Source of the DNA: Naegleria gruberi
Taxonomy: Eukaryota
Length of the DNA stretch: 1,104 nt
Reading direction: 5' to 3' (one strand)
NCBI GenBank assembly: GCA_000004985.1
Contig: GG739560.1
The notes below the pieces were generated by a model. The model saw only the letters and a list, made by a program, of their open reading frames with translations, searched no databases and had not been told where the DNA came from. Below are positions 3 through 1,104 of the stretch, in pieces. Each line of letters opens with the position of its first letter. The stretch's first letter is position 1. The position numbers and the translations under genes are program-made.

Positions 3-224
3 GAACTACAAATTAATCAACAAACAATTCAACCAAAGGAAAAAGAAAATACAGAAAATACTACCGTCATTACTAATTCTGTGGAAAAGAAAAATTATGA
101 TTGTGTAAATTGTGGCAAACCTAACTCTAAAAAGAAGTGTGGAGCATGTCAAGCAGTTGTTTATTGCTCTAAAGAATGCCAAAGCAAGCATTGGAAGGTG
201 CATAAATTAACATGCAATAAGTAA
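3..224 (+). CDS. 3' terminal part of a gene encoding a MYND-type zinc-finger protein (5'-partial; stop codon TAA at 222-224). Translation: ELQINQQTIQPKEKENTENTTVITNSVEKKNYDCVNCGKPNSKKKCGACQAVVYCSKECQSKHWKVHKLTCNK*
   Basis: The frame is open from the window edge (pos 3) with no in-frame stop until 222-224. The Cys/His spacing C(102)-x2-C(111)-x8-C(138)-x2-C(147)-x5-C(165)-x3-C(177)-x7-H(201)-x3-C(213) matches the MYND consensus. CVNCG...C..C....YCS..CQ.K.W..H...C closely resembles the DEAF1/ETO/BS69 MYND fingers. Third codon positions are A/T-biased (caa, gaa, aat), consistent with the genome composition. The provided ORF track omitted it only because it lacks an in-window ATG. Confidence 0.85.
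   Translation, partial: ELQINQQTIQPKEKENTENTTVITNSVEKKNYDCVNCGKPNSKKKCGACQAVVYCSKECQSKHWKVHKLTCNK
102..215 (+). other. MYND zinc-finger domain (8 zinc ligands: Cys codons 102,111,138,147,165,177,213 and His 201; additional conserved H-W at 189-194)
   Basis: Direct translation: CVNCGKPNSKKKCGACQAVVYCSKECQSKHWKVHKLTC. The canonical MYND spacing and the conserved C-Q-x-K-[DH]-W-x-x-H-x-x-x-C tail are both present. Confidence 0.85.
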
Positions 225-338
225 ACTACTGTTATATTTCATCTGTTTGTAATTCTCAAGGTTTGCATTGAGGGAGTGTTTTGCTTATGGAAAATATTCA
301 AAAGAACGTACACAGTTTGTTCTTAAATAATATGCTAT
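225..338 (+). other. Probable 3' UTR / downstream flank of the MYND gene (AT-rich, no ORF)
   Basis: It lies immediately after the stop codon and is non-coding in all frames. It contains A/T-rich stretches (ttaaataatat at 322-332) that could act as polyadenylation signals, but there is no canonical AATAAA. Confidence 0.3.
327..338. repeat. Left arm of a 12-bp perfect inverted repeat (ATAATATGCTAT) bracketing the GC-richer island
   Basis: ATAATATGCTAT at 327-338 is the exact reverse complement of ATAGCATATTAT at 612-623. Three further A:T pairs are possible inward (340-342 / 608-610) after one G/T mismatch. Confidence 0.6.
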
Positions 339-611
339 GAAACGAAAGATTGGGACGCCTTCTCTCAGAAATTTAGCCTTAACAAGATTCGTTTTCCTCC
401 TGATATCTCAGAATCCTCAGTGTGGTAACCGTCCCAATGCAAGCTTCACTATTAACAGGAGGTACCTCTCTGCCTACCACAGGCAGGCTCAGTCTAACCA
501 ACCACTTAGTGTCAACCCATAACTCTTAAACGCTGAACCGAAACTTACTGGTTGTAGACCTCGTCTCTCAGGTCTTTACGATACAAGAGGTAATATTACA
601 ATTTAATTTTT
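339..611. other. Non-coding, compositionally distinct island (~45% GC vs ~28% in flanks) enclosed by the inverted repeats. Candidate MITE-like element or structured Pol III-type ncRNA of unknown family.
   Basis: There is a sharp GC shift at ~344 and ~590. Stop codons occur in all frames apart from the weak 61-aa track ORF. Internal hairpins are CTGCCT-accac-AGGCAG at 470-486 and AGACCT-n8-AGGTCT at 556-575. The octamer TCTCTCAG is repeated at 361-368 and 564-571. CTCAG occurs 5 times on the + strand and never on the - strand. A T5 run at 607-611 lies directly 3' of the island. Confidence 0.35.
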
Positions 612-623
612 ATAGCATATTAT
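612..623. repeat. Right arm of the 12-bp perfect inverted repeat (ATAGCATATTAT)
   Basis: Exact reverse complement of 327-338 (checked base by base). Confidence 0.6.
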
Positions 624-685
624 CAGTATACAACAACTCCGAATAACAGTCATCTTGTTGGTGTAGATCAAACATGATAAAACAA

Positions 686-753
686 TTGAAAATTGTTGTG
701 TTGAGTTGTTGTGAATCAAGGTTGAAAATAAGCAAGATTTCCGACCTTGAAAT
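686..753 (+). repeat. Short direct repeats: TTGTTGTG x2 (693-700, 706-713; 13-bp period) and TTGAAAAT x2 (686-693, 722-729) plus TTGAAAT (747-753). Also the 6-bp inverted pair TCAAGG (716-721) / CCTTGA (745-750).
   Basis: Counted directly from sequence. Confidence 0.45.
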
Positions 754-851
754 TTACCATTACTTACTTTTATTAATACTTTTATTGGTGGTGTGATTCA
801 TTTACCTTAATGATATGATGTTATTAATGATACTATGTTGATGAAATTCAC

Positions 852-863
852 TCATCATGATGA
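852..863. promoter_or_regulatory. Perfect 12-bp palindrome TCATCATGATGA (two inverted TGATGA half-sites, no spacer)
   Basis: The sequence equals its own reverse complement. It sits in a cluster of TGATGA motifs. Palindromic hexamer pairs are typical dimeric transcription-factor sites. Confidence 0.3.
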
Positions 864-956
864 AAATATAGGGTGAATGATGATTTTACCTTGCAGACTA
901 CAATACTTTTGATTGAAAGTTTTCCAAATTACCATATGAATCTGGCAGTAATGATG

Positions 957-988
957 ATTTTAGTGAAAATATTAAATTTCACTAAAAT
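957..988. repeat. Hairpin / inverted repeat: perfect 12-bp stem (ATTTAGTGAAAA / TTTTCACTAAAT) with 8-nt loop ATATTAAA
   Basis: 957-968 pair base-for-base with 988-977. The left arm begins at the last base of the TGATGA at 952-957. Confidence 0.55.
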
Positions 989-1104
989 ATTACTATTATC
1001 AGATTTAAAAATTACTATTAATGATGATAAATAACAATGATGATGGTTGGTAGTTGTTCCGATGATGATGTACCAACTTGAATTTTTCCAAATAATAAAA
1101 TTAT

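What the first reader, a model, noticed from the sequence alone, without database searches (positions are those of the whole stretch)
327..623. ~300-bp GC-richer non-coding island bracketed by perfect 12-bp terminal inverted repeats: candidate MITE or structured ncRNA
In an otherwise ~28% GC context, ~250 bp jump to ~45% GC with no convincing ORF. The inverted repeats ATAATATGCTAT (327-338) and ATAGCATATTAT (612-623) coincide almost exactly with the boundaries of the island. TIR-flanked, small, non-coding, internally structured elements fit the definition of MITEs. Alternatively the arms could form a long-range closing stem of a structured RNA. I could not match the island to tRNA, 5S, U1-U6, U3, SRP, RNase P/MRP or telomerase RNA motifs, so it may be an undescribed element. 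No unambiguous target-site duplication is visible (flanks ...CTTAA| and |CAGTATA), which weakens the transposon reading.
Basis: seen in the sequence. Interest (0 to 1): 0.6.

Follow-up and report, generated by a model that had tools for sequence, protein, structure and literature searches.

The report
Inverted-repeat-bounded GC-rich insert, probably a MITE
A 297-bp non-coding, GC-rich block closed off by a perfect 12-bp inverted repeat sits just downstream of a MYND zinc-finger gene; it looks most like a small non-autonomous DNA transposon, not a folded RNA gene, so it is probably ordinary.

Summary
ATAATATGCTAT (327-338) and its exact reverse complement (612-623) bracket a GC island, and the match extends to 16 nt with one mismatch. 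The best-fit island is 352-590, at 46.4% GC against 28.0% elsewhere. A perfect repeat of 12 bp or more somewhere in the window arises in 11% of shuffles. One that brackets the island arises in only 2 of 3000 flank shuffles, so arms and island form one unit.

The claim of internal structure fails. Without the arms the core folds no better than shuffled sequence (z -0.2 to -0.5, both strands), and 100-nt windows inside it give z from about -0.7 to +2. Rfam (4227 families, permissive mode) and ARAGORN find nothing. No open frame exceeds chance, and no six-frame peptide matches Pfam.

My best reading is a MITE-like terminal-inverted-repeat element of foreign base composition, inserted about 100 bp after the stop codon of a MYND-finger gene (confidence about 0.45). 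An unstructured, lineage-specific RNA gene remains possible (about 0.2).

The decisive test, copy number in the source genome, could not be run. No accessible collection holds this genome or a close relative. Interest is low.

The parts
327..342 (.). Left terminal inverted-repeat arm, ATAATATGCTATGAAA. The first 12 nt are perfect.
   Evidence: the repeat finder I3. Exact 12-mer found once on each strand.
608..623 (.). Right terminal inverted-repeat arm, TTTTATAGCATATTAT. The last 12 nt are perfect. On the minus strand it contains TATAAAAA (612-605); on the plus strand it follows a T5 run (607-611).
328..329 (.). Possible left copy of a TA target-site duplication. This applies if the true terminal repeat is 330-338 / 612-620.
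   Evidence: Read directly from the sequence. It cannot be told apart from part of the repeat.
621..622 (.). Possible right copy of a TA target-site duplication.
   Evidence: Read directly from the sequence.
352..590 (.). GC-rich core: 46.4% GC, C 68 / G 43 on the plus strand. It has no ORF, no Rfam match and no excess folding.
   Evidence: boundaries, C-vs-G skew p = 0.022; Rfam; folding; ORF.
364..571 (+). Five same-orientation copies of CTCAG at 364, 407, 416, 488 and 567 (CUGAG on the minus strand). No explanation found.
   Evidence: 5 found, 1.24 expected, 0 of 200 shuffles reach 5; 0.47 expected in island shuffles, 0 of 2000 reach 5. Probability that any 5-mer reaches 5 copies: 0.024.
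343..351 (.). AT-rich spacer between the left arm and the GC core.
591..607 (.). AT-rich spacer between the GC core and the right arm.

Best explanation
The unit 327-623 is a miniature, non-autonomous cut-and-paste DNA transposon (MITE-like). It could also be read as 330-620 flanked by a TA duplication.

Proposed mechanism: a transposase encoded elsewhere binds the 12-16-bp terminal inverted repeats, excises the unit and reinserts it. Here it landed about 100 bp downstream of the TAA stop (225-227) of a MYND zinc-finger gene, in its 3' flank or 3' UTR. The 46% GC core is passenger sequence that still carries the composition of its source. Together with the perfect termini, that suggests a fairly recent insertion that mutation has not yet eroded towards the 28% GC of the host DNA.

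Shown:
- the repeat;
- that it coincides with the compositional boundaries;
- the absence of coding capacity, of known RNA-family signal and of RNA structure.

Inferred:
- mobility;
- the transposase;
- the age of the insertion;
- the TA duplication.
For: - Perfect 12-bp terminal inverted repeat, 16 nt with one mismatch, at the stated coordinates.
- Arms and compositional island are one unit: only 2 of 3000 flank shuffles give a bracketing perfect repeat of 12 bp or more. Island boundaries 352-590 lie 10-20 nt inside the arms.
- Size is 297 bp. No open frame beyond chance, and no Pfam domain in any frame.
- The only ATG-started ORF (337-522) has GC3 0.49 and CAG 4 / CAA 1. The neighbouring MYND exon has GC3 0.24 and CAA 6 / CAG 0. 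The composition is therefore foreign to the host gene.
- Not a structured RNA: no Rfam hit in permissive mode, no tRNA, core z about 0 on both strands.
- A TA duplication is compatible (sequence).
- Position just downstream of a gene (MYND finger, PF01753, 47.1 bits) is typical of MITEs (general knowledge).
- The surrounding intergenic DNA holds several further palindromic elements. This fits a region colonised by repeat-forming elements.
Against: - Copy number, the defining property, is untested. No second copy or relative turned up in anything I could search, but none of those collections holds the source genome.
- MITEs are usually AT-rich, and many fold end to end. This core is 46% GC and does not fold.
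- No subterminal inverted or direct repeats beyond the 16-nt arms.
- The repeat sequence does not resemble any superfamily terminus I know of.
- The TA duplication cannot be demonstrated. The 4-bp (TTAA) and 8-bp duplication lengths I checked against the flanks do not fit the sequence.
- The C-over-G skew (p = 0.022) and five same-orientation CTCAG motifs point to a strand-specific property that plain passenger DNA does not predict.
Confidence: 0.45

Rival explanations
1. An orphan, lineage-specific non-coding RNA gene. In AT-rich genomes a GC-rich island often marks a stable RNA.

Two versions are possible:
- The AU-rich arms form a terminal helix of the transcript or its precursor (16 bp, -15.9 kcal/mol). 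That helix clamps or marks for processing a largely unstructured core of about 265 nt.
- The arms lie outside the transcript and carry TATA-like promoter sequence.
For: - GC contrast of 46% vs 28% with sharp edges.
- Strand asymmetry: the minus strand is G-rich, 68 G / 43 C, p = 0.022.
- The minus strand folds more stably in absolute terms (-83.4 vs -68.6 kcal/mol).
- One local hairpin, 495-556 on the minus strand, uses four G-U pairs and has z = -2.5.
- TATAAAAA (612-605, minus strand) ends about 12 nt upstream of the start of the GC-rich sequence. No run of four or more T occurs on the minus strand from 612 down to 303.
- The plus strand ends in a T5 run at 607-611.
- Five oriented CUGAG/CTCAG motifs.
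Against: - No Rfam family at E up to 10 on either strand.
- Core z-scores of about 0 on both strands, and local windows from -0.66 to +2.0.
- The one favourable hairpin was picked after looking at the fold.
- The would-be terminal helix has only 2 G-C pairs in 12 and is separated from the core by AT-only spacers. That is unlike the terminal helices of known RNAs.
- In AT-rich DNA a TATA-like sequence and the absence of T runs are expected by chance.
- The plus strand has an internal T4 run at 392-395.
- The strand cannot be assigned.
- No box C/D or H/ACA layout (sequence).
Confidence: 0.2
2. A Pol III-type telomerase RNA on the plus strand. The proposed elements are:
- a template-like 10-mer AACCCAUAAC (513-522), which is one 7-nt unit plus a 3-nt repeat;
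- GUCA directly upstream of it, the template-boundary motif of ciliate telomerase RNAs;
- helix 463-469 / 586-592, which would enclose the core;
- a T5 terminator at 607-611.
For: - The sequence itself.
- T5 run at 607-611.
- Telomerase RNAs are notoriously missed by family models, and Pol III-transcribed types exist in ciliates, plants and Hymenoptera (PMC12133305).
Against: - No organism with a (TTATGGG)n telomere turned up. The only literature hits were the 12-nt Allium repeat.
- By my own rough estimate, not a computation, a 3-nt repeat at 7-nt spacing is expected several times by chance in 250 nt.
- No support for a pseudoknot or any structure.
- No significant similarity to dictyostelid telomere repeats.
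- Internal T4 run at 392-395.
Confidence: 0.03
3. A fixed fragment of foreign or formerly functional DNA with no present activity. Examples are a decayed piece of a larger transposon, a horizontally acquired scrap, or a regulatory block. In this reading the flanking repeat is one more of the palindromes common in this intergenic region.
For: - The window is rich in palindromes besides this one: 629-713, 716-750, 957-988 and 852-863.
- 11% of whole-window shuffles hold a 12-bp perfect inverted repeat.
- The core is featureless by every test.
Against: - The repeat brackets the island on both sides far more closely than chance allows (2 of 3000).
- Its arms lie 265 nt apart, unlike the other palindromes, which are local hairpins with loops of 45 nt or less.
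Confidence: 0.15
4. A small protein-coding gene. ORF 337-522 encodes 61 aa (MKRKIGTPSLRNLALTRFVFLLIS...) with an N-terminus that resembles a signal peptide.
For: ATG-started ORF listed. A basic then hydrophobic N-terminus (by eye).
Against: - An open frame of this length is expected by chance: 86.5% of shuffles reach it.
- Codon usage is unlike the neighbouring gene.
- No homologue in the 5.8-billion-protein index, no Pfam family, and no record of this product in the assembly index.
Confidence: 0.04

Closest known systems
Tc1/mariner-derived MITEs (Stowaway-like elements of plants, mimp of Fusarium and similar)
   Same: Length of about 200-300 bp. Short terminal inverted repeats at the exact ends. 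No coding capacity. Compatible with a TA target-site duplication. Inserted close to a gene.
   Different: - The core is GC-rich (46%) in an AT-rich host, not AT-rich.
- It does not fold into an end-to-end hairpin.
- The termini (ATAATATGCTAT or ATATGCTAT) do not resemble the terminal sequences I know for these families (my own knowledge, not tested).
- Copy number and a parent element are unknown.
GC-rich stable-RNA islands of AT-rich genomes (for example Dictyostelium DUSE-driven ncRNA genes, Plasmodium RUF RNAs)
   Same: A sharp island of about 45% GC in a background below 30% GC, with no ORF.
   Different: - No covariance-model match.
- No folding signal.
- The single DUSE-like octamer ACCCATAA (515-522, plus strand) lies inside the island and is not significant: 38 of 200 shuffles hold one (DUSE as described in PMC7919456).
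RNase MRP / RNase P RNA
   Same: On the minus strand:
- ACACUGAGGAUUCUG resembles the human MRP P3 loop as I remember it;
- three GAGAG runs recall the GARAR loop of P8;
- a 9-bp helix, AUUGGGACG / CGUCCCAAU, has P4-like sequence.
   Different: - The P4-like strands are in the wrong order on both strands. The GGGAC strand lies 5' of the GUCCC strand, whereas the consensus is 5' gaaAGuCCCC ... acnnnanGGGGCUnannnu 3' (PMC1796607).
- No CR-IV motif.
- The GAGAG runs are not pentaloops.
- Rfam RNase_MRP and RNaseP_nuc do not score even at E = 10.
Ciliate or plant-type Pol III telomerase RNA
   Same: GUCA followed by a C-rich 10-mer built as one unit plus a 3-nt repeat. A long-range helix around it. 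A T5 run at the end.
   Different: No known matching telomere repeat. No pseudoknot or stem-loop signal. An internal T4 run. All of these matches were picked after looking at the sequence.

Membership tests
MITE (non-autonomous terminal-inverted-repeat DNA transposon) | Terminal inverted repeats at both ends of the unit | tested here: met
   12 bp perfect, 16 nt at 94%. The arms bracket the compositional island in only 2 of 3000 flank shuffles.
MITE (non-autonomous terminal-inverted-repeat DNA transposon) | Target-site duplication directly outside the terminal repeats | tested here: inconclusive
   Outside the 12-bp arms nothing matches: the left flank TTAA has no partner on the right, and the 8-bp flanks GTTCTTAA vs CAGTATAC do not match. 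A TA duplication (328-329 / 621-622) around a 9-bp repeat is possible, but it cannot be told apart from the palindromic repeat itself.
MITE (non-autonomous terminal-inverted-repeat DNA transposon) | Small size and no coding capacity | tested here: met
   297 bp. The longest open frame, 64 codons, is matched or exceeded in 86.5% of shuffles. No Pfam hits. No protein homologue.
MITE (non-autonomous terminal-inverted-repeat DNA transposon) | Many dispersed copies in the same genome, with variable flanks | not testable with these tools
   The source genome is not in any accessible collection. There was no match for the island, and only distant MYND-domain matches (36-70% identity over the domain) for its neighbouring gene, in viral, metagenome, prokaryote-genome, phage or plasmid collections or the protein indexes. 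There is no second copy within the window or in the 70 loci fetched by that point.
MITE (non-autonomous terminal-inverted-repeat DNA transposon) | AT-richness and potential to fold into a stable hairpin (usual, but not obligatory) | tested here: not met
   Core is 46.4% GC. Core folding z is about 0. No subterminal inverted similarity beyond the arms.
Any Rfam 15 RNA family (snRNAs, SRP, RNase P/MRP, telomerase RNAs, snoRNAs, riboswitches, ribozymes) | Covariance-model match | tested here: not met
   No match overlaps the GC core except a 16.4-bit chance hit to PhotoRC-II (gathering score 39, E = 4.4) and a 14-bit hit to snoR64a that reaches only its right edge. Both were found at E up to 10 with relaxed filters.
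Structured ncRNA in general | Folding energy lower than shuffled controls, or covariation | tested here: not met
   Energy: core z is -0.2 to -0.5; sliding windows give -0.66 to +2.0. Covariation could not be tested because no homologues were found.
RNase MRP RNA | 5' P4 (gaaAGuCCCC) followed 80-500 nt downstream by 3' P4 (acnnnanGGGGCUnannnu); CR-IV; GARAR loop on P8 | tested here: not met
   The GUCCC and GGGAC strands occur in reverse order on both strands. Consensus taken from PMC1796607.
Box C/D snoRNA | Box C (RUGAUGA) near the 5' end and box D (CUGA) near the 3' end, with a terminal stem | tested here: not met
   No TGATGA on either strand between 1 and 838. CUGA is present five times on the minus strand of the island, but with no box C.
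Box H/ACA snoRNA | Hairpin, ANANNA hinge, hairpin, then ACA 3 nt from the end; boxes 14-16 nt from the pseudouridylation pockets | tested here: not met
   Checked by eye on the plus strand. The only ANANNA (ACAGGA, 455-460) lies 17 nt after the 5' hairpin (348-438), about 25 nt from its pocket. The second 'hairpin' is branched. The minus strand has no ACA in a suitable position.

The most novel reading that the evidence does not exclude
The island is a single-copy, lineage-specific non-coding RNA gene that no Rfam family describes. Its core of about 265 nt would be largely unstructured, carry five oriented CUGAG/CTCAG motifs, and be clamped or marked for processing by a 16-bp AU-rich terminal helix. 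In the most interesting version it would be a Pol III-type telomerase RNA with the template AACCCAUAAC.
Probability: 0.15. Interest if true: 0.55.

Novelty: new member of a known kind. Interest (0 to 1): 0.2.

Why it matters
If it is a MITE, it matters little. It would be one more small transposon in a gene's 3' flank, useful mainly as a marker of recent transposon activity and perhaps of horizontal arrival, given its foreign base composition.

If the minority reading is right, it would add an undescribed RNA class from an AT-rich eukaryote. Nothing measured here favours that reading.

The practical lesson concerns the screen. A GC-rich island bounded by an inverted repeat was scored as 'structured', but all of the apparent structure came from the repeat itself.

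Tried and rejected
Identifying the source genome or an orthologous locus: all attempts failed.
- Word-index protein search with the MYND fragment found nothing.
- The full HMMER scan of 1.84 billion representatives returned only generic MYND-domain hits, at most 67% identity over the domain. Their cluster names were uninformative.
- Back-translated scans of viral, metagenome and prokaryote-genome contigs gave no hit above 70% identity over the domain.
- Exact DNA scans found nothing.
- Exact-product look-ups found nothing.
- Blastn against plasmids and phages found nothing.
- Blastn and nhmmer against the 70 loci fetched by then found nothing.
- Literature searches for island and repeat-arm sequence strings found nothing relevant.

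RNA families considered and rejected: RNase MRP/P, SRP, U1, U2, U4, U3, 7SK, H/ACA, C/D, TPP riboswitch and hammerhead. Each was rejected on motif order or content by eye, and on the Rfam result.

Other readings rejected:
- Dictyostelid reading. One DUSE-like octamer, not significant and in the wrong place. No similarity to the dictyostelid telomere repeats GGGGAGAGACA and GAGGAGAGAGTCCCTTTTTTT.
- Telomerase template. No known TTATGGG telomere.
- Alternative genetic codes (TGA = Trp; TAA/TAG = Gln). None gave a credible ORF downstream of 227. All six Gln codons of the MYND exon are CAA, and the exon ends at TAA, which argues for the standard code.
- Bacterial promoter and terminator scan: nothing above background.
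- Solo LTR and the TTAA and 8-bp target-site duplication classes: flanks do not fit.
- Spliced-exon reading (YCTCAG as splice acceptors): the would-be intron is as GC-rich as the would-be exons, and no frame is credible.

Full report
**What the window is**

The first 227 bases encode the C-terminal end of a protein ending in a MYND zinc finger (...[40 protein letters not shown]). It matches Pfam PF01753 at 47.1 bits. All six glutamine codons are CAA and the frame stops at TAA, so the standard genetic code applies. Downstream of 227 there is no credible ORF in the standard or two alternative codes. The DNA looks like AT-rich eukaryotic nuclear sequence. I could not identify the organism; the searches are listed near the end.

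**The observation**

ATAATATGCTAT at 327-338 and its reverse complement at 612-623 match perfectly. The match extends to 16 nt with one mismatch, 327-342 / 608-623.
- The GC island is real. A two-change-point likelihood fit places it at 352-590, with 46.4% GC against 28.0% for the rest of the window (profile).
- The island is strand-asymmetric: 68 C against 43 G on the plus strand, p = 0.022.

**Is it more than chance?**

- A perfect inverted repeat of 12 bp or more somewhere in the window is unremarkable. It appears in 11% of dinucleotide shuffles, and the window has a second one at 957-988.
- The position is what matters. With the core held fixed and the flanks shuffled, a perfect repeat of 12 bp or more with both arms within about 30 nt of the island edges appears in 2 of 3000 trials.
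- Real AT-rich DNA is richer in palindromes than shuffles are, so the true probability is somewhat higher.
- I still treat the arms and the island as one unit of 297 bp.

**Is it a structured RNA? No evidence.**

- Rfam 15, run in permissive E-value mode on the whole window and again on 300-650 alone, gives no meaningful hit on either strand.
- ARAGORN finds no tRNA or tmRNA.
- The full unit has z = -2.1 (minus strand) and -2.8 (plus strand) against shuffles. This comes entirely from the arms. Their duplex is worth -15.9 kcal/mol, and removing them changes the MFE by -14.9 / -12.8 kcal/mol.
- The core alone has z between -0.2 and -0.5 on both strands.
- Sliding 100-nt windows inside 326-600 run from -0.66 to +2.0.
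- One hairpin on the minus strand (495-556, four G-U pairs) has z = -2.5, but I selected it after seeing the fold.
- By eye I found several helices on the minus strand, including a 9-bp perfect one (438-430 / 357-349) that crosses a 7-bp one (462-456 / 402-396). I also saw resemblances to RNase MRP/P motifs. The P4-like strands are in the wrong order relative to the published consensus (PMC1796607), and no model supports the match.
- Box C/D is excluded: there is no TGATGA anywhere before position 839.
- Box H/ACA fails the box-to-pocket spacing rule.

**Is it coding? No.**

- The longest open frame touching the unit is 64 codons. In shuffles, 86.5% do as well.
- The ATG-started ORF 337-522 has GC3 0.49 and prefers CAG. 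The MYND exon has GC3 0.24 and uses only CAA.
- That ORF has no homologue and no Pfam family. No other six-frame peptide hits Pfam.

**What remains**

The unit has these properties:
- about 300 bp long;
- sharply bounded by terminal inverted repeats;
- non-coding;
- not detectably structured;
- base composition foreign to its surroundings;
- about 100 bp downstream of a gene's stop codon.

That is the operational description of a MITE-type non-autonomous DNA transposon.

TA is self-complementary, so TA|ATATGCTAT...ATAGCATAT|TA reads as a longer inverted repeat. The TTAA and 8-bp duplication classes I checked are excluded by the flanks.

Points against the MITE reading:
- the unusual GC-richness;
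- no subterminal repeats;
- the C-over-G skew;
- five same-orientation CTCAG pentamers at 364, 407, 416, 488 and 567. About 0.5 are expected, and the probability that any pentamer reaches five copies is 0.024. I cannot explain them.
- above all, copy number is unknown.

I put this reading at about 0.45. An orphan, largely unstructured RNA gene gets about 0.2. Inert foreign or decayed DNA with a fortuitous palindrome gets about 0.15. A small ORF gets 0.04. A telomerase-RNA reading (GUCA followed by AACCCAUAAC at 513-522, then T5 at 607-611) gets 0.03. No (TTATGGG)n telomere is known from the literature I could search, and the island does not resemble dictyostelid telomere repeats.

**Searches for relatives**

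- The MYND fragment has no close relative in the word-indexed 5.8-billion-protein set.
- The HMMER scan of 1.84 billion representatives returned only generic MYND-domain hits.
- Viral, metagenome and prokaryote-genome contigs gave the same result.
- Exact DNA scans, product look-ups, phage and plasmid BLAST, and literature string searches were all empty.
- Covariation, synteny and copy number therefore could not be examined. They are the decisive tests.

**Outside the finding**

The truly structured parts of this window lie to the right of the island.
- 626-756 on the plus strand folds into two hairpins (629-713 and 716-750) at -38.0 kcal/mol, z = -5.5, with MFE equal to centroid. The minus strand gives z = -4.2, and five G-U pairs favour the plus strand. 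Rfam gives only sub-threshold box C/D and miRNA hits there.
- 957-988 is a perfect 12-bp hairpin, z -4.9 / -6.0.
- TGATGA occurs eight times between 839 and 1068 against 1.4 expected, and 0 of 200 shuffles reach eight. No CTGA lies on the plus strand, which carries seven of the eight, anywhere right of 623, so these are not canonical box C/D snoRNAs.

**Verdict**

The feature is real but probably ordinary. The 'MITE' half fits but is unproven.

Noticed in passing
window 3-227 (+): C-terminal coding end of a protein with a MYND zinc finger (PF01753, 47.1 bits), stopping at TAA 225-227. All six Gln codons are CAA, so the standard code applies. No close homologue was found in any protein or contig collection searched.
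   Followed up: yes
window 626-756 (+): A two-hairpin element (629-713, 29 bp with small symmetric loops; 716-750, 13 bp) lies immediately right of the right repeat arm.
- MFE -38.0 kcal/mol, z = -5.5 (0 of 200 shuffles), MFE equals centroid; the minus strand gives z = -4.2.
- Five G-U pairs favour the plus strand.
- It is followed by T4 runs at about 768 and 780.
- No H or ACA boxes, and only sub-threshold Rfam hits.
It could be a hairpin RNA (miRNA-like precursor) or a foldback repeat.
   Followed up: partly
window 957-988: Perfect 12-bp hairpin with an 8-nt loop (ATTTTAGTGAAA / TTTCACTAAAAT). z = -4.9 (plus) and -6.0 (minus). It is the second perfect 12-bp inverted repeat in the window.
   Followed up: partly
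window 839-1068: TGATGA occurs eight times, seven of them on the plus strand, against 1.4 expected (0 of 200 shuffles reach eight). This includes four copies of AATGATGAT and the 12-nt palindrome TCATCATGATGA at 852-863. No CTGA lies on the plus strand right of 623, so these are not canonical box C/D snoRNAs. The Rfam snoRNA hits here are far below threshold (snoU18 19.7 bits vs 47).
   Followed up: partly
window 807-839: 17-bp tandem duplication (TTAATGATACGATGTTA, 1.9 copies, 87% matches, TRF score 52).
   Followed up: no
window 364-571 (+): Five same-orientation CTCAG pentamers inside the island, each preceded by pyrimidines (for example ttctCTCAG, gtctCTCAG). About 0.5 are expected. Corrected for all pentamers, p = 0.024. 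No explanation found.
   Followed up: partly
window 515-522 (+) and 509-522 (+): ACCCATAA matches the Dictyostelium DUSE consensus WCCCAYAA, but it is not significant (38 of 200 shuffles) and lies inside the island. The same stretch reads GUCA-ACCCAUAAC, which resembles a ciliate telomerase template boundary plus template. No matching telomere repeat is known.
   Followed up: partly
window 44-61 (+): Exact 9-bp tandem duplication (AGAAAATAC x2) inside the coding region, giving the low-complexity peptide EKENTENT.
   Followed up: no
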